32,000 nt of DNA from Synechococcus elongatus PCC 6301 (GCF_000010065.1 NC_006576.1:1410001-1442000); one strand, 5' to 3'; shown: positions 2,134 to 32,000, numbered from the stretch's first letter. Numbers and translations are program-made. The notes: generated from the letters alone by a model not told the origin.

Positions 2134-3522
2134 CTAGCGTGTCTCAGAACGAGCGCGATCGCGGATTTCCTGCAAGCTTTGTCGCCGCACGATCGCACCA
2201 TTTTCAAACACCGTTTGCAGGCAGGATTGCGGGTCAGGCTCTGACGTCAGTAACGAGACTGTTCGGTATTGCCCCTCGCGATCGCGAATTAAATCCAAGC
2301 GTCCTGCTTTGCTAGCCTTGCGCAGATCCGTGGCTGGTCGCTTGCAAATGGGAATCACTTGTCCCGATCGCTCGATCCAGCTGCACTTGTAGGCAAAGCG
2401 TTGGGTATCGCGATTGACCTGCTGCAACAGCCCGCCACCCATGCCAAAAGCGACATTACTGGCACTAAAGCCAGCGGCCATAACCGCTTGCAGAACTTTG
2501 GGCAGACTGTCCACTGTGATCCCATCGCCCTGAATCACCCGCACCGATCGCAAAACTTGATAACCCTTCTGATTGCGATCGCAGCCGAACTTAGCGGCCA
2601 AACGACGCAGTAATTCCGGCACAATCTGCTCAGGATTGCCTGAGTCAGGCCGAATGACAACGGTTGCTCCCGATTGCAAAATGCGATCGCGGAGATCCTC
2701 ACCCCAAAGCTGATCGACGGCATGCCAGAGATCATAGGAGTCCGATACAACAGCCACCACAGATCCCGGATTTGCAAAGCGATCGAGCATATTGCGGTAA
2801 GCATCTAACTCACCCGATGGGCCCCAAGCCGTAATCGTTGAATGCTCCGCCGCCGGAATCGAAAAGCCAGCGATCGCGCAATCGTAATAGCGCTGTCCTG
2901 CCAGTAACGCAGCGATCGTATCAGTGCCTTGAAAGTTGACCAAATGAGCCAGCCCGCCGATTGCAGCACTTTCTTGGCTCGATACCCCGCGTGATCCAAA
3001 GTCATGCAGTTTGAAGTCAATTTCAGCTGCTGGATTTTCGGCTGATTGCTCCAGCGCTTGCTGAATGATTTGCCGAAGCTGCCAACTGCGTGTAGCCACA
3101 GTTATCGGATACCAAACCCGCAGCAGTAGTGTCTCAACCCAAGTGGCCAGCCAAGCCAATTCAGGATCGGTCGATTCCACTGTCAGCAAGATATTGCCGG
3201 TGGGGACAAGGCTACCTTCCGGGACAGCCCGAATTCGTAAAGGTAAATACCCGCCATAGCGATCGCAAACTCGTTGCCAGCCCGCTTGATTGAAAGGCAG
3301 CCCATGCGCTTGAAACAGCGCGGCGGCTTCTTGAATGTCAGCGCTAGTGATTGGCTGGAAGAAATAACGCAGTAGTAGATATTGCAAGCCAAAAAAGAGC
3401 GTGTGCGAGCAATCTCCACCCCGGCTTTCTAAATAAGCTCCGATCGCAGTCGTATCGGCAGGATATTGCAGCCAGTGGCTGACTTTGTATGAGTCGGTAT
3501 CGAACAGAAGATTGAGGTCCAT
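2134..3522 (-). CDS. nadV: nicotinamide phosphoribosyltransferase (NAMPT/NadV family)
   Basis: 462-aa ORF. The N-terminal FDTDSYKVSHWLQYP and the overall length are typical of NadV-type phosphoribosyltransferases. It lies directly downstream of the NadM-Nudix gene on the same strand. Confidence 0.85.
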   Translation of the reverse strand: MDLNLLFDTDSYKVSHWLQYPADTTAIGAYLESRGGDCSHTLFFGLQYLLLRYFFQPITSADIQEAAALFQAHGLPFNQAGWQRVCDRYGGYLPLRIRAVPEGSLVPTGNILLTVESTDPELAWLATWVETLLLRVWYPITVATRSWQLRQIIQQALEQSAENPAAEIDFKLHDFGSRGVSSQESAAIGGLAHLVNFQGTDTIAALLAGQRYYDCAIAGFSIPAAEHSTITAWGPSGELDAYRNMLDRFANPGSVVAVVSDSYDLWHAVDQLWGEDLRDRILQSGATVVIRPDSGNPEQIVPELLRRLAAKFGCDRNQKGYQVLRSVRVIQGDGITVDSLPKVLQAVMAAGFSASNVAFGMGGGLLQQVNRDTQRFAYKCSWIERSGQVIPICKRPATDLRKASKAGRLDLIRDREGQYRTVSLLTSEPDPQSCLQTVFENGAIVRRQSLQEIRDRARSETR

Positions 3523-3669
3523 AATCAGTTGCGCTCCGCAACGATGAGGTCAAGGACAACTCACCCGGTCTCTCCAGACTGAGCTGTCAGGACAAAATGA
3601 CTACCAAAACAAGAGGCTAAAGCTCTTGAAGTCCAGCTATACAGCGACCTAACACTGATCTCAGCAGCA

Positions 3670-4695
<1,026 letters not shown>

Positions 4696-4837
4696 TCAGA
4701 ACCCCTGAAGTGAAAGCCTGCTTCGATTAGCGTGGCTTGCTTTGAAGGTAACACTGAATTTCGAAAGCTGACAAGGCGATCGCGGCGTCAGCCTATGCAC
4801 ACAATGAAATAGTGAACGGCACAGCTGGATTAAAGCG

Positions 4838-5302
4838 ATGCATTGGCTGATATGGGGATGGTGCTTGCTTCTCCTGTTGGGGAGTCCGAGCTTGCCCGCG
4901 ATCGCGGCGATCCATCACTATCCCGAAGCGGGCGATCGCGAAATGATTCGCTCCTTGCAAAGTCTGCGCGATGCAAGGGATCAATCTTGGCAGGTGATTT
5001 TCTATGAACGTCGCCAAGGCAGCGATCGCCTAGCATCACGGCTGCGCTTAGTGGGGTTTCCAGCGGTGCGGCTCTCGCGACAGACGCCCTTGATCGTGGA
5101 GCAAACCGGACAGCAACTGGCATTGCCCAATGTGACCGATCTGGATGCTCAGCTCAGCGCCAATGTGGCGGAGTTCGATAGCGAAGCGCTATTGCCGCTT
5201 CTCGATCGCGTGACTCCACTGCGGCTGCAGCTCGACCAGGAAGTGGCACTGACGGTGCCGCCGTTTATGGTCAAAGAATGGGCTGCGATCGGGCATGAGT
5301 GA
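4838..5302 (+). CDS. hypothetical exported protein (signal-peptide-like N-terminus)
   Basis: 154-aa ORF. The hydrophobic N-terminus MHWLIWGWCLLLLLGSPSLPAIAA resembles a Sec signal peptide. Its end overlaps the ribD start by 8 nt. No family recognised with confidence. Confidence 0.55.
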   Translation: MHWLIWGWCLLLLLGSPSLPAIAAIHHYPEAGDREMIRSLQSLRDARDQSWQVIFYERRQGSDRLASRLRLVGFPAVRLSRQTPLIVEQTGQQLALPNVTDLDAQLSANVAEFDSEALLPLLDRVTPLRLQLDQEVALTVPPFMVKEWAAIGHE

Positions 5303-28327: not shown

Positions 28328-29419
28328 TCAGGCCCAAATCGCACGCCCGAGACTGTAGAGCAACAGTGCCGAGCCAATCGCGATCGGCAGGGTAATCAGC
28401 CAAGTCCAGAGCAAGCGTCGGATTGTCTGGCGGTTGAGGGCTGTCTGGGTGGCGAGTGTGCTGCCAGCAATGCCCGCCGTCAGGACTTGCGTGGTGCTGA
28501 TCGGCAACCCCCAACGACTGGCCGTCAGGATTGTGGCAGTGGTTACCGCAGCAGAAGAGAGGGATTGGGCGGTGGTTAAGGGGCGATCGCCCATGGCTTC
28601 GCCGAGGGTGTGGGTGATCCGTTGCCAGCCAATCAGGGTACCGATCGCCAGACTGAGGGCAACGGTTACTTTGATACCGAGGGGTAAGTGGTGCTGCTCC
28701 AACGCAGTCGCAAAGCGATCGGGCAAGGCTGTCGCCAGAATCAAGAGCAGCAGTCCCATGCCCTTTTGCCCATCGTTGGTGCCGTGGCTGAAGCTCATGC
28801 CCGCGGTAGCCAGCAAGAGACTACTACGGGTTGGCCAAGTCAGGGTTGGCTCTGCCAAGGATTCCAGTTGGTCTAGGCTAGTTGGCAAGCGCGATCGCAC
28901 CAGACTCAGCAATCCGTAGGCCAGAGCAAAGCCCAGCAACGGCGAGAGTAGCAGCGCTTCTAGCGTGGCGGGGAGCGGTGGCACCGTCAAAGCCTGCCAA
29001 GTCCAGGACTGCTCACTCCACAGTTGCCCCCAGTGAACACCAATCAACGCCCCGATCAGGGTTTGTGAACTGGAGAGGGGAATGCCCCGCCACCACGTCA
29101 GCCAGTTCCAGGCGATCGCCACCAATAACAGCGCTGCCACGGCCCACCAGTCTGGGGTCTGCCCTGCCGTGGTTGGCGGTAAGAGCGCCACAATCCCAAA
29201 GGCGACTGCACCGGACGAGGCGATCGCCCCCACGAGATTCCAAAGGCTACTCCAAATCACGGCGGTAAAAGGCGTCAGTACGCGACTGTAGACCAGCGGC
29301 GCGATCGTGTTGGCGCTGTCGTGGAAGCCGTTGATCAGTTCAAACAGGAGGCAGAGCAACACCCCTAAGATCAGCCAACTGCGATCGCTACTGCCCAGTT
29401 CCAGTAAGGCCGCGATCAT
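28328..29419 (-). CDS. inorganic phosphate transporter, PiT (PHO4) family
   Basis: 363-aa polytopic ORF with the duplicated PiT signatures NGFHDSANTIAP and SHGTNDGQKGMG. Confidence 0.85.
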   Translation of the reverse strand: MIAALLELGSSDRSWLILGVLLCLLFELINGFHDSANTIAPLVYSRVLTPFTAVIWSSLWNLVGAIASSGAVAFGIVALLPPTTAGQTPDWWAVAALLLVAIAWNWLTWWRGIPLSSSQTLIGALIGVHWGQLWSEQSWTWQALTVPPLPATLEALLLSPLLGFALAYGLLSLVRSRLPTSLDQLESLAEPTLTWPTRSSLLLATAGMSFSHGTNDGQKGMGLLLLILATALPDRFATALEQHHLPLGIKVTVALSLAIGTLIGWQRITHTLGEAMGDRPLTTAQSLSSAAVTTATILTASRWGLPISTTQVLTAGIAGSTLATQTALNRQTIRRLLWTWLITLPIAIGSALLLYSLGRAIWA

Positions 29420-29805
29420 GAGCGAGGCGGCAAGGACTCGGAGACAGCGATCGGGTCACTAGGATGTGCAAGCCGTCGCCGCAACCGCTGCACCGTCACA
29501 CCTGCTTCGATCGCAGAGCCAAGACCTACGGCGATCCAACCTAAACTGGCAGTTTTGAGGGCAGCCCAGGCAAAATTGGTAGCGCGATCTTCAAAGCTCA
29601 CGGAAGGCGTTCTGGCCCATGCGATCGCCCCGGAGAGGCTGCCGCTCCCCAGTGCTGCCAAAAAAGCAATCAACGCACCCAGCCAGTAGGCTTTCCAGCG
29701 TCTTTGATAGACATAACCGCCGCCATTACAGGTCAGGTTAAATAAAACTGCAATCCAAATCGCAGTTTCAGCCAGCGATCGCTGGCGTTCTTGAGGAGTC
29801 AGCAT
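29416..29805 (-). CDS. hypothetical membrane protein (129 aa)
   Basis: ORF with three hydrophobic segments. 4-nt ATGA-type overlap with the PiT gene start implies co-translation. No family recognised. Confidence 0.55.
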   Translation of the reverse strand: MLTPQERQRSLAETAIWIAVLFNLTCNGGGYVYQRRWKAYWLGALIAFLAALGSGSLSGAIAWARTPSVSFEDRATNFAWAALKTASLGWIAVGLGSAIEAGVTVQRLRRRLAHPSDPIAVSESLPPRS

Positions 29806-30001: not shown

Positions 30002-30727
30002 ATGGCCTCCACAGATCAGCATTATGAACAACTGCTCGCGCCGATTTACGAATGGATGGCTGGTGGCGCTGAGGCAGCACTCACTGCTGGTGCTGCTGAC
30101 TTAGAGGGACTTTTGCACTCGCCGGGGCTCTGTTTGGATTTGGGTGCGGGCTTTGGCATGCATGCGATTCCACTCGCACAAGCAGGCTTTGAGGTGATCG
30201 CGATCGATTCTTCGGCGCAGCTCTTGGCGCGGTTACAGGAGTTAGCGGGTTCTCTGCCGATTCAGTCGGTTTGTGCTGATTTGCTGGACTTTCCTGAGCA
30301 TCTGCCGGCAGGCCGCAAGCCAAGCCTGATCGTCTGCATGGGCGACACCTTAACTCACCTCGATAGTCTTGAGGCAGTCGATCGCTTAGCGAGTCTGGCC
30401 GCTGAACATCTCGCACCGGGTGGGCGTTTTCTGGCGACATTCCGCGATTATTCGCAGCCACTTCAGGGCGATCGCCGCTTTATTCCGGTGCGATCGGATC
30501 AGTCTCGAATCCTCACCTGCTTTCTGGAAGAACAAGGCGATCGCATCTGTGTGCATGACATCCTCCATGAACGGCAGGGCGATCAATGGACGATGCAAGT
30601 CAATCACTATCTGCAGCTGCGGCTAGCACCCGAAACAGTTCGCCAGATTTTTGTAGATAAGGGCTTCATGACGCAGATAGAGGCAGCACCGAGAGGTATG
30701 CTGCGCCTAATTAGCGATCGCCATTGA
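30002..30727 (+). CDS. class I SAM-dependent methyltransferase
   Basis: 241-aa ORF. Motif I CLDLGAGFGMHAIPLAQAGFEVIAIDSS and post-I/II spacing typical of Rossmann-fold methyltransferases. It is GC-rich and contains HIP1 sites, so it belongs to the native chromosome. Confidence 0.8.
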   Translation: MASTDQHYEQLLAPIYEWMAGGAEAALTAGAADLEGLLHSPGLCLDLGAGFGMHAIPLAQAGFEVIAIDSSAQLLARLQELAGSLPIQSVCADLLDFPEHLPAGRKPSLIVCMGDTLTHLDSLEAVDRLASLAAEHLAPGGRFLATFRDYSQPLQGDRRFIPVRSDQSRILTCFLEEQGDRICVHDILHERQGDQWTMQVNHYLQLRLAPETVRQIFVDKGFMTQIEAAPRGMLRLISDRH

Positions 30728-31006
30728 AGTGATGACAGTATAATCGTATATTTATTAAATTAAGTAAGGAGTTTTCAGCGCTTCATTTACATGGATTTCA
30801 CTACACCCTCCAAGAAATTGGAAGACATCTTCTGAAAGATTGCACCCAATCAATATCTCTTGCCTAAATGTTAACAAATAGTTTGGTGGTCTAATGACCT
30901 TCATCAGCAACAGCTAACTTAATGTAAGAATTTTGTAATCACGCAATACATTAAGATAATTCTGAGACAAGCTTCATCACAGCATTTTGCCCTTATACTG
31001 GAGAAG

Positions 31007-31012
31007 TATAAT
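31007..31012 (+). promoter_or_regulatory. candidate -10 box (TATAAT) for the ATPase gene
   Basis: Perfect TATAAT 79 nt upstream of the ATG. There is no convincing -35: TTGCCC at 30987..30992 is only 14 nt away. AT-rich DNA produces such hexamers by chance. Confidence 0.25.
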
Positions 31013-31077
31013 ATGTAGATTCTTGATTTACGGCAATAGACTGCCAACTCATGATCAAGAAGTTAAACTAAGGCTTT

Positions 31078-31082
31078 AGGAG
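31078..31082 (+). promoter_or_regulatory. Shine-Dalgarno sequence AGGAG
   Basis: AGGAG lies 8 nt upstream of the ATG at 31091. Confidence 0.6.
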
Positions 31083-31090
31083 TCGAGAAA

Positions 31091-32000
31091 ATGAAAATTA
31101 AGCGAATTTCTGTATATGGTTTATTTGGAGTTTTTGATCACACAATTTCCTTAAACACTAATCAAAGAATTACTATTATTCATGGTCCTAATGGCTTTGG
31201 AAAAACAGCAGTATTAAGACTATTAAACAGCTTTTTTAATTCTCGATATTCCGAGTTAAGATCAATTTCATTTAATAAATTCAAGGTAGAGTTAAATGAT
31301 GATACAGTTATTGAAGTTGCAAGAGAAATAAAAGACTTTCACGAGTCAGGAAGAGTTGATATAACTTTTTATTTATACAAACCTAACATCGAGAGAAAAT
31401 CCTTCTCTTTAGGTCAGGTTAAATATTCTCCCGATATAGGTTTTCCTATTGGTATCCTAGATGAAGTAGTGCCAGGTCTGGAAAGAATAGATACCAGAAA
31501 GTGGATGTATCTTCCCACCGATGAGGTTTTATCTTTAGAAGAAGTTGTTGAGCGTTTTGGAGACTCATTACCTGACTCTTTATCTGCAAATTTAAGGGGA
31601 TCTTATTCAAAAGAAGAACCTGTGTGGTTGAAGGACATAAAAAATGCTATTCACATTCGCCTCATTGAATCGCAGCGACTACTTAATCTCGTTCCTAGTC
31701 GTTCTTCCAGAACATATCGTGGAACACCTTTAATGCTATCTACTGTCTCCGCTTATTCGGATGAACTTGCAAAGCTCATGCAAGATAAATTCAAGGAATA
31801 TGGCACAACATCGCAATCTCTTGACAGAACATTTCCATTGAGAGTGGTAAAGCAACAGCCATCTTCGGACGTATCAGATGAGCAGCTTCGCAACCAGTTG
31901 GATGAGCTTGAGTCAACTCGTTCTCGTCTCATAGAGGTAGGACTACTAGATAAAGAAGAAGATTCAGAATTTCAAATTCAACCTCAAGATATTGATGAGA
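31091..32000 (+). CDS. SMC/RecF-like ABC-type ATPase, N-terminal 303 aa only (runs off the right edge)
   Basis: I translated this by hand and found no stop from ATG 31091 to 32000, which is why it is missing from the ORF track. The sequence begins MKIKRISVYGLFGVFDHTISLNTNQRITIIHGPNGFGKTAVLRLLNSFF. That is a beta-strand lead-in plus Walker A GPNGFGKT (31184..31207), typical of RecF/SMC/Rad50-type ABC ATPases. A candidate Q-loop is at IRLIESQRL. It is followed by a charged, helical-looking stretch (DELAKLMQDKFKEY ... SDEQLRNQLDELESTRSRLIEVGLL). Confidence 0.75.
   Translation, partial: MKIKRISVYGLFGVFDHTISLNTNQRITIIHGPNGFGKTAVLRLLNSFFNSRYSELRSISFNKFKVELNDDTVIEVAREIKDFHESGRVDITFYLYKPNIERKSFSLGQVKYSPDIGFPIGILDEVVPGLERIDTRKWMYLPTDEVLSLEEVVERFGDSLPDSLSANLRGSYSKEEPVWLKDIKNAIHIRLIESQRLLNLVPSRSSRTYRGTPLMLSTVSAYSDELAKLMQDKFKEYGTTSQSLDRTFPLRVVKQQPSSDVSDEQLRNQLDELESTRSRLIEVGLLDKEEDSEFQIQPQDIDE

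What the first reader, a model, noticed from the sequence alone, without database searches (positions are those of the whole stretch)
30728..32000. Compositional break at a stop codon: left edge of a probable foreign (defence-type) island
Seen in sequence:
- Up to 30721 the DNA is GC-rich and carries GCGATCGC every few hundred nt. The last copy lies inside the final codons of the methyltransferase gene (stop at 30725..30727).
- From 30728 to the window end there is no HIP1 copy in about 1.27 kb.
- GC drops sharply; hand counts of individual 60-nt lines gave about 28% and 50%.
- Codon choice flips to A/T-ending codons, with Arg as AGA and Leu as TTA.
- The segment opens with a 363-bp non-coding AT-rich leader, then a gene with a textbook AGGAG RBS.

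Inference: this DNA has not been in the genome long enough to acquire HIP1 or the host GC content, so it was probably acquired horizontally. An ABC/SMC-like ATPase as the first gene is the usual signature of anti-phage or conflict systems. The rest of the system lies outside the window, which makes this the best candidate here for an undescribed system.
Basis: partly seen in the sequence, partly recalled or inferred. Interest (0 to 1): 0.8.

Follow-up and report, generated by a model that had tools for sequence, protein, structure and literature searches.

The report
PARIS anti-phage cassette in variable slot
The sharp drop in GC content at the stop codon is real. It marks the left edge of a 3-kb foreign insert carrying a known two-gene anti-phage system (PARIS, AriA plus AriB), in a genome slot where another strain of the same species carries a different defence system, DarTG.

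Summary
At 30728 GC falls from 0.57 to 0.36 (z = -9.3), the tetranucleotide profile shifts (z = 16) and HIP1 stops; the full HIP1 gap is 3,670 bp.

The window is Synechococcus elongatus PCC 6301. In the near-identical PCC 7942 record the ATPase gene (31091 onwards, 457 aa in full) overlaps by 4 bp a 290-aa DUF4435/Toprim gene. Native genes follow. The insert is 3,058 bp, lying between the stop codons of two convergent core genes. It has no integrase, tRNA or flanking repeats.

Both proteins best match the PADLOC AriA and AriB models. The ATPase's closest solved structures are E. coli AriA. The ABC motifs and Toprim acidic residues are conserved. The gene pair is adjacent in 53 of 54 related loci.

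Another S. elongatus strain (flanks 95-97% identical) has DarT-DarG in the same slot, and a more distant relative has a third sequence there. This makes the slot a strain-variable defence hotspot.

The cassette is AT-rich and HIP1-poor in every cyanobacterial host, so composition does not date its arrival. It is a new member of a known kind.

The parts
30002..30727 (+). Native left flank. A class I SAM-dependent methyltransferase gene (241 aa, identical to BAD79518.1, syc1328_d, of PCC 6301). Its stop codon at 30725-30727 is the left limit of homology between strains. The last HIP1 copy is at 30714-30721.
   Evidence: ORF. Pfam Methyltransf_25/23/11/12. Exact-sequence look-up. GC 0.555 and GC3 0.55. 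L062/L056 homology ends at the stop codon. Identity to the DarTG strain falls from 99% to 84% across the last 400 bp.
30728..31090 (+). AT-rich non-coding leader of the insert (363 bp, GC 0.34). Only the first ~12 nt resemble the 3' UTR seen in relatives. No homologue was found upstream of the cassette in any other host.
   Evidence: Sequence. GC. DNA homology to other cassettes begins only about 20-35 nt before the ATG. No Rfam match. Promoter-like sites are not enriched over shuffles. Junction comparison with L058 and L062.
31078..31082 (+). Shine-Dalgarno AGGAG, 8 nt upstream of the ariA start codon.
   Evidence: Read directly from the sequence.
31091..32000 (+). ariA, codons 1-303 of 457, cut by the window end; the full gene would end at window-equivalent 32464. 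It encodes an ABC/SMC-type ATPase of the AAA_15/AAA_21 kind. Walker A (GPNGFGKT) lies at 31184-31207.

Outside the window, in window-equivalent coordinates taken from the PCC 7942 record:
- ariB (DUF4435/Toprim, 290 aa): 32461-33333, overlapping ariA by 4 bp.
- AT-rich trailer: 33334-33785.
- Native tRNA_bind gene: 33788-34141 (-).
- Next HIP1 copy: 34384.
   Evidence: Translation. The full protein P0001 is 100% identical over the fragment. Gene order. Pfam AAA_15 75 bits and AAA_21 59 bits, both above cut-off. PADLOC best hits are AriA, 7.5e-25 and 3.1e-21 full-length. Best PDB sequence hit is E. coli AriA, 1.8e-12. The top 15 Foldseek hits are all AriA chains. Invariant ABC motifs.

Best explanation
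Window 30728 onwards is the left end of a 3,058-bp horizontally acquired insert. Its window-equivalent span is 30728-33785. It sits exactly between the stop codons of two convergent core genes, a methyltransferase and a tRNA_bind-domain gene, in Synechococcus elongatus PCC 6301/7942.

Its only cargo is a two-gene operon of the PARIS family. ariA encodes a 457-aa ABC ATPase. ariB encodes a 290-aa DUF4435 Toprim nuclease and overlaps ariA by 4 bp.

Shown here:
- the composition break;
- the gene pair and its strict conservation as a pair;
- family assignment by HMM, by sequence and by predicted fold;
- conservation of the ATPase motifs and the Toprim acidic residues;
- the fact that the slot holds other cargo (DarT-DarG, or a third sequence) in related strains.

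Inferred from the E. coli B185 system (PMC11464382, PMC12409363): AriA oligomers hold AriB inactive. A phage protein, in E. coli the anti-restriction protein Ocr, binds AriA in an ATP-dependent way and AriB is released. AriB then dimerises and cuts the anticodon loops of particular host tRNAs (Lys, Thr and Asn in E. coli). This stops translation and aborts the infection.

Also inferred: cargo in this slot is exchanged by homologous recombination through the flanking core genes, rather than by a site-specific recombinase. The host is naturally transformable, which is established knowledge.
For: Composition:
- GC z = -9.3, tetranucleotide z = 16.3, HIP1 gap of 3,670 bp.

Gene pair:
- ATPase followed by a DUF4435 gene with a 4-bp overlap, in all S. 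elongatus assemblies read.
- The same adjacent pair occurs in 53 of 54 related genome loci; the exception is cut by a contig end. No third gene is conserved, and neither S. elongatus neighbour occurs beside the pair elsewhere.

Family assignment:
- PADLOC best hits are AriA (7.5e-25; 3.1e-21 over the full model) and AriB (8.8e-25, the only strong hit).
- Pfam AAA_15, AAA_21 and DUF4435 are all above gathering score.
- The best PDB sequence match is E. coli AriA, 464 aa against 457 aa, E 1.8e-12.
- The AlphaFold model of the ATPase (pTM 0.73) has AriA chains as Foldseek ranks 1-15 (E 1e-13 to 4e-10), ahead of retron ATPases, PtuA and Rad50.
- Walker A K38, Q195, LSSGE 376-380, Walker B D403-E404 and H437 are invariant in 30 homologues.
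- E29, D33, D82, D84, D105 and E107 are invariant, including in a Yersinia P2-like phage homologue and an E. coli plasmid homologue. Their spacing matches E26, D30, D88, E90 and E122 of E. coli AriB (PMC11464382).
- A homologous ATPase plus DUF4435 pair sits between cI and int of a Yersinia P2-like phage, E 4e-21.

Hotspot:
- In a strain with 95-97% identical flanks the slot holds DarG (1.4e-140) and DarT (1.5e-65).
- An 84%-identical relative has yet another AT-rich sequence there.
- Flank divergence rises towards the slot on both sides.
Against: - No experiment bears on this locus, and no paper mentioning it was found.
- The DUF4435 protein has no sequence-level or profile-level match to the solved E. 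coli AriB.
- Its AlphaFold model is poor (pLDDT 56). The Foldseek match to AriB chain 8ux9_A is weak: rank 2, E 0.077, probability 0.93.
- ATPase identity to E. coli AriA is only about 16-20%, so trigger and tRNA target cannot be transferred with confidence. Burman et al. note that the AriA pore residues are poorly conserved.
- No empty version of the slot was found, so the exact insertion junctions and the exchange mechanism are inferred.
- No relatives were found on viral contigs.
Confidence: 0.85

Rival explanations
1. An ATPase plus Toprim pair that is PARIS-like in architecture but works differently. For example, an OLD- or Gabija-like nuclease acting on DNA, or a plain toxin-antitoxin pair in which the AAA_21 ATPase neutralises a Toprim toxin without sensing phage.
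For: - AriB similarity to the solved E. coli AriB is detectable only through HMM families, not directly.
- The PADLOC list for the ATPase also contains PtuA, GajA, NsnB and ATPase-Toprim models at E 1e-23 to 1e-11.
- An OLD-family nuclease is a weak PDB hit, 1.7e-5.
Against: - The partner protein hits only AriB strongly in PADLOC; the next hit is 1.4e-3.
- It carries DUF4435, not Toprim_OLD, HNH or a helicase.
- The ATPase and nuclease are separate proteins, unlike OLD and GajA.
- AriA chains outrank every other ATPase by about four orders of magnitude in Foldseek.
Confidence: 0.1
2. One reading: the left edge of a larger, undescribed multi-gene defence island whose other components lie beyond the window.
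For: - The window ends inside the first gene, so the rest could not be seen.
- The composition break is real.
Against: - The extended sequence shows only one more foreign gene, then a 452-bp trailer with no credible ORF, no Rfam hit and no unusual fold.
- GC, GC3 and HIP1 return to host values from the tRNA_bind gene onwards.
- Both genes match a described system.
- Strain-to-strain homology resumes at the tRNA_bind stop codon.
Confidence: 0.03
3. Native, vertically inherited genes whose low GC reflects their own constraints, with no horizontal transfer.
For: The cassette is AT-rich and HIP1-poor in every host, including Nostoc loci that share one syntenic site. Composition alone therefore does not prove recent arrival.
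Against: - Within one species the slot holds PARIS in some strains and DarTG in another.
- The closest relative of the cassette is in Nodosilinea (83% nt, 88% and 72% aa), with unrelated flanks.
- Leader and trailer are foreign in composition too.
Confidence: 0.02

Closest known systems
PARIS (AriA/AriB) of E. coli B185, structures 8UX9 and 8V45-8V49 (Burman et al. 2024, PMC11464382; Deep et al., PMC10802264; Belukhina et al. 2025, PMC12409363)
   Same: - A two-gene operon of an ABC ATPase of about 460 aa followed by a DUF4435/Toprim protein of about 300 aa.
- Best HMM, sequence and fold matches.
- Conserved Walker A and B, signature and H-loop motifs, and Toprim acidic residues with the same spacing.
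   Different: - Only about 16-20% identity for AriA.
- No direct sequence match for AriB.
- The host is a cyanobacterium.
- The site is chromosomal, between core genes, rather than in a P4 satellite.
- Trigger, tRNA targets and stoichiometry are untested.
ATPase plus DUF4435 pair between cI and int of Yersinia P2-like phage vB_YenM_31.17, and a similar pair on E. coli plasmid pDS26_129
   Same: - The same abutting two-gene architecture.
- The AriB-like protein is 28% identical over 86% of its length, E 4e-21. The plasmid ATPase is 27% identical over its full length, E 2e-38.
- The invariant catalytic residues are shared.
   Different: These pairs are carried by a temperate phage or a plasmid next to an integrase. 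The S. elongatus copy has no mobility gene.
DarT-DarG (DarTG) in the same slot of another S. elongatus strain (locus L062)
   Same: - It occupies the identical position between the methyltransferase and tRNA_bind stop codons.
- It is also a two-gene defence system and is also below host GC, at 0.42.
   Different: The proteins are unrelated (an ADP-ribosyltransferase toxin and a macrodomain antitoxin). The genes are on the opposite strand. The insert is 2,266 bp rather than 3,058 bp.
Integrase-free core-genome defence hotspots, described in other bacteria such as Pseudomonas aeruginosa
   Same: Conserved core genes flank a slot with strain-specific defence cargo. There is no recombinase, and flank divergence rises towards the slot.
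   Different: Only three cargo states have been seen here, and the slot is very small (2-3 kb, one system at a time). The recombination mechanism is inferred.

Membership tests
PARIS (AriA/AriB) | Adjacent, co-oriented genes for an AAA_15/AAA_21 ABC ATPase and a DUF4435 protein | tested here: met
   The genes overlap by 4 bp. AAA_15 scores 75.3 bits (cut-off 32.1), AAA_21 59.5 (27) and DUF4435 60.0 (27). The pair is conserved in 53 of 54 related loci.
PARIS (AriA/AriB) | Curated AriA and AriB profile HMMs are the best defence-system matches | tested here: met
   PADLOC gives AriA at 7.5e-25 and 3.1e-21 (residues 1-442 on model positions 1-373 of 373), and AriB at 8.8e-25 (model 2-226 of 236) with the next hit at 1.4e-3. 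PADLOC's own system-level rules were not run.
PARIS (AriA/AriB) | AriA is a Rad50/SMC-like ABC ATPase with intact catalytic motifs | tested here: met
   GPNGFGKT (32-39), Q195, LSSGE (376-380), LIDEPE (401-406; E404 corresponds to E. coli E393) and H437 are invariant in 30 homologues.
PARIS (AriA/AriB) | The AriA fold is closest to solved AriA | tested here: met
   Foldseek against the PDB puts AriA chains at ranks 1-15, E 1.3e-13 to 3.6e-10, TM 0.41-0.62. The next hits are retron ATPases at 1e-9 or weaker. The model has pLDDT 73 and pTM 0.73.
PARIS (AriA/AriB) | AriB Toprim metal-binding acidic residues (E26, D30, D88, E90 and E122 in E. coli) | tested here: met
   E29, D33, D82, D84, D105 and E107 are invariant across the cyanobacterial, Yersinia-phage and E. 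coli-plasmid homologues. The E-x3-D and D-x-D spacings match (residues from PMC11464382).
PARIS (AriA/AriB) | The AriB fold matches solved AriB (8UX9 chain A) | tested here: inconclusive
PARIS (AriA/AriB) | An AriA oligomer sequesters AriB, and a phage trigger (such as Ocr) releases it | not testable with these tools
   This needs biochemistry or cryo-EM.
PARIS (AriA/AriB) | Released AriB cleaves specific tRNAs, and the system protects against phage | not testable with these tools
   This needs tRNA sequencing and cyanophage challenge.
Gabija / OLD-family nucleases | ATPase and Toprim fused in one protein (GajA, OLD), with a GajB helicase partner for Gabija | tested here: not met
   The ATPase and Toprim are separate proteins and no helicase is adjacent. 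GajA models match only the ATPase ends, at E 6e-11 or weaker.
Septu (PtuA/PtuB) | An ABC ATPase with an HNH nuclease partner | tested here: not met
   The partner is DUF4435/Toprim and shows no HNH match. The PtuA hits reflect shared ATPase ancestry.
Integrative genomic island or prophage | An integrase, a tRNA or tmRNA target, and flanking direct repeats | tested here: not met
   There is no integrase among the called genes and no tRNA in 21 kb. Only short chance-level repeats were found, and no viral-contig relatives.
Core-genome defence hotspot | The same slot between conserved core genes holds different defence systems in different strains | tested here: met
   PARIS is present in PCC 6301/7942. 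DarT-DarG is present in the strain with methyltransferase WP_126147191.1 (flanks 95-97% identical). A third sequence is present in an 84%-identical relative.

The most novel reading that the evidence does not exclude
The cyanobacterial AriA/AriB clade, with about 1,300 detectable relatives mostly in Nostocales, may be a functionally distinct PARIS branch. It would sense a cyanophage protein other than Ocr-type DNA mimics and cut a different set of tRNAs. The methyltransferase | tRNA_bind slot would be a recombination-driven, integrase-free defence hotspot in a naturally transformable model cyanobacterium. Because S. elongatus PCC 7942 is genetically tractable, both ideas are directly testable. 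A weaker further reading is that the adjacent tRNA_bind gene matters to a tRNA-cleaving system. The evidence argues against this: the gene has native GC3 and is absent next to the cassette in all 54 other loci.
Probability: 0.3. Interest if true: 0.45.

Novelty: new member of a known kind. Interest (0 to 1): 0.3.

Why it matters
S. elongatus PCC 6301/7942 is a main laboratory model for cyanobacteria, and its phage-defence content affects cyanophage work and strain engineering. A likely functional PARIS system in it gives an accessible non-proteobacterial example for asking what triggers PARIS outside enterobacteria and which tRNAs it cuts. No paper describing it was found.

The PARIS/DarTG swap between two convergent stop codons is a clean, very small example of an integrase-free defence hotspot.

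There is also a methodological point. In this gene family, low GC and lack of HIP1 persist in every host, so they flag foreign-type cargo but do not date its arrival.

Tried and rejected
- **PDB searches for the DUF4435 protein.** The single sequence, a 20-sequence profile and a broadened 12-sequence profile gave no AriB hit. They returned only spurious de novo TIM-barrel matches and weak MukE and RNase M5 matches. The Yersinia phage and E. coli plasmid homologues did not bridge to solved AriB either.
- **Viral contigs.** No relatives of the ATPase.
- **Plasmid megablast of the window end.** No match.
- **Rfam on the whole slot.** Nothing.
- **Promoter and terminator scans.** Not above shuffles.
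- **Flanking repeats and tRNA genes.** Only chance-level repeats and no tRNA.
- **Trailer 33334-33785.** No credible ORF, fold z = -0.7.
- **Metagenome scan with the methyltransferase.** This looked for further slot variants and found only relatives at 57% identity or less, none S. elongatus-like.
- **Genome-collection scan.** It did not return S. elongatus itself; the extension came from the exact-protein look-up.
- **Literature.** Searches for PARIS in S. elongatus or for the locus tags found nothing. One preprint ran DefenseFinder on PCC 7942, but its held supplements do not list the result.
- **tRNA_bind gene as part of the insert.** Rejected. Its GC3 is 0.57, it is homologous in the DarTG strain, and it is never beside the cassette elsewhere.

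Full report
**Observation.** The window carries 120 copies of HIP1 (GCGATCGC), against 1.4 expected. The last is at 30714-30721, inside the final codons of a methyltransferase ORF (30002-30727, stop at 30725-30727). From 30728 the GC of 400-bp windows falls from 0.57 to 0.30-0.40.

Measured against all native 1,273-bp windows (mean 0.568, sd 0.023, minimum 0.493), the tail at 0.356 has z = -9.3. Its tetranucleotide profile lies 16 sd from the native spread. GC3 is 0.26 against 0.55-0.72 in neighbouring genes. AGA/AGG make up 12 of 22 Arg codons and TTA 14 of 34 Leu codons. The leader is 363 bp, and AGGAG at 31078-31082 sits 8 nt before the ATG at 31091.

**What lies beyond the window.** The 303-codon fragment is 100% identical to a 457-aa S. 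elongatus protein, P0001. An exact-sequence look-up shows that the window's methyltransferase is the PCC 6301 allele, BAD79518.1 (syc1328_d). The ATPase is BAD79519.1 in PCC 6301 and ABB56213.1 in PCC 7942. The PCC 7942 record differs from the last 10.9 kb of the window at four bases, so I used it (locus L056; window coordinate = L056 coordinate + 21,090) to extend the sequence.

The ATPase gene is followed, with a 4-bp overlap, by a 290-aa DUF4435 gene. Next come 452 bp of AT-rich non-coding DNA. After that the genes have native composition: a tRNA_bind-domain gene on the minus strand, an ABC transporter pair, RsmI, an inositol phosphatase and others. GC and GC3 return to host values at the tRNA_bind gene (GC3 0.57). 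HIP1 resumes at window-equivalent 34384, so the gap is 3,670 bp against a next-largest gap of 1,189 bp. The 21 kb contains no integrase and no tRNA gene, and only chance-level repeats flank the segment.

**Identity of the two genes.** PADLOC's best models are AriA for the ATPase (7.5e-25; 3.1e-21 end to end) and AriB for the partner (8.8e-25, with no other strong hit). Pfam gives AAA_15, AAA_21 and DUF4435, all above gathering scores. This domain pair defines PARIS in Burman et al. (PMC11464382).

The best solved relative of the ATPase by sequence is E. coli AriA, 464 aa, at 1.8e-12. An AlphaFold model (pLDDT 73, pTM 0.73) has AriA chains as its 15 best Foldseek matches in the PDB, at 1e-13 to 4e-10. 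Retron ATPases, PtuA and Rad50 follow at 1e-9 and weaker. Walker A, Q-loop, signature, Walker B (E404, equivalent to E. coli E393) and H-loop are invariant in 30 homologues.

The DUF4435 protein has invariant E29, D33, D82, D84, D105 and E107. Their spacing matches the Toprim residues E26, D30, D88, E90 and E122 of E. coli AriB (PMC11464382). Direct comparison with solved AriB is the weak point. No sequence or profile hit was found. The model is poor (pLDDT 56). Its Foldseek match to AriB chain 8ux9_A is rank 2 with the highest probability (0.93) but E 0.077, among other Toprim domains.

A bridging observation helps. The S. elongatus protein matches, at 4e-21, a protein of a Yersinia P2-like phage that follows an ATPase gene between cI and int. 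A similar ATPase-plus-partner pair lies on an E. coli plasmid.

**The pair as a unit.** In 53 of 54 related genome loci the two genes are adjacent and abutting; the exception is cut by a contig end. These loci are mostly Nostocales. The closest is Nodosilinea, at 83% nt and 88% / 72% aa identity. DNA homology to those cassettes covers only about 30 nt upstream of the ATG through the ariB stop; the leader and trailer are unique. No third gene is conserved beside the pair, and neither S. elongatus neighbour ever accompanies it. Fifteen Nostoc loci share one syntenic site next to a gene that starts like topoisomerase I (my reading of its N-terminal sequence; no domain search was run), which suggests long residence there.

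**Composition is a family trait.** In every host the cassette is more AT-rich than its flanks, 0.30-0.43 against 0.32-0.60. Across the 53 non-S. elongatus loci it holds 4 HIP1 copies where flank densities predict 92 (P about 3e-34). Low GC and absent HIP1 therefore mark the cargo type.

**Direct evidence for turnover.** A second S. elongatus strain (methyltransferase WP_126147191.1; loci L062-L067) has flanks 95-97% identical to PCC 7942. Homology ends exactly at the methyltransferase stop codon and resumes at the 3' end of the tRNA_bind gene. Between them that strain has 2,266 bp carrying DarG (PADLOC 1.4e-140) and DarT (1.5e-65) on the other strand, at GC 0.42.

A more distant relative (84% nt; L058) shares about 25 nt of 3' UTR with the DarTG strain and then runs into a third, unrelated AT-rich sequence before its contig ends.

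Identity between the PARIS and DarTG strains falls towards the slot on both sides. On the left it drops from 99% to 84% over the last 400 bp of the methyltransferase gene. On the right it is 83.5% in the first 200 bp of the tRNA_bind gene (87% over the gene as a whole), then 99-100%. This pattern fits exchange by homologous recombination through the flanks, which is an inference.

The slot, window-equivalent 30728-33785 between two convergent stop codons, therefore behaves as a small integrase-free defence hotspot.

**Mechanism.** By analogy with E. coli B185 (PMC11464382, PMC10802264, PMC12409363), AriA oligomers would sequester AriB. A phage protein would bind AriA in an ATP-dependent manner and release AriB. 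AriB would then dimerise and cleave anticodon loops of selected tRNAs, halting translation. Only the conserved catalytic machinery is shown here. Complex formation, trigger and targets are inferred. The pore residues that bind the trigger are reported to be poorly conserved among AriA homologues, so a different trigger is likely.

**Verdict.** The DNA is foreign and defence-type, and its edge is at the stop codon. It is not undescribed, and it does not extend beyond two genes. It is a new member of a known kind, in a well-used model organism, and no paper describing it was found. Interest is modest, at 0.3.

Noticed in passing
window 29549, 29703, 29830, 30687: The window differs from the PCC 7942 record at only four bases in its last 10.9 kb. 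Two of them (29549, 29703) fall in the 129-aa minus-strand ORF (29416-29805) and one (29830) just upstream of it, all within 280 bp. The fourth changes Ala to Val in the methyltransferase. The window carries the PCC 6301 allele.
   Followed up: partly
L058 1392-2112 (84%-identical relative, Logan ERR14373510): A 215-aa GrpB-domain gene lies between the 129-aa gene and the methyltransferase in this relative. It is absent from PCC 6301/7942, so there is a second variable point about 0.8 kb to the left of the defence slot.
   Followed up: no
window 30002-30727: The methyltransferase has host GC and HIP1 copies. However, its closest homologues outside S. elongatus are 61% identical or less and come largely from non-cyanobacterial genomes and soil metagenomes. 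Its best NCBIfam hit is a daptide-type RiPP methyltransferase, far below the cut-off (57 bits against 175). It may be an older acquisition whose composition has since drifted to that of the host.
   Followed up: partly
L056 13042-13251 (window-equivalent 34132-34341): The region upstream of the tRNA_bind gene carries an indel of about 150 bp between the PARIS strain and the DarTG strain. The tRNA_bind gene itself is only 87% identical, against 96-100% further out.
   Followed up: partly
L034 11332-13523; L049, L051 and L052 (ariA): In one Nostoc MAG, ariB is split by an insertion of about 1.3 kb, with about 15 codons duplicated at the break. In three other loci AriA lacks roughly residues 100-175 while staying in frame. 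That region corresponds to the variable insertion IS1 (residues 122-180) of E. coli AriA.
   Followed up: no
window 3001-5000: This stretch has lower GC (0.50 against about 0.57) and sparse HIP1 (gaps of 589 and 745 bp). It covers two minus-strand ORFs (2134-3522 and 3670-4686). It was not examined.
   Followed up: no
alignment A4, profile positions 135-222 (C-terminal half of the DUF4435 protein): The region gives weak profile matches to MukE chains (E about 0.1). These are probably chance, but this part of the protein is otherwise unassigned and was modelled poorly.
   Followed up: no
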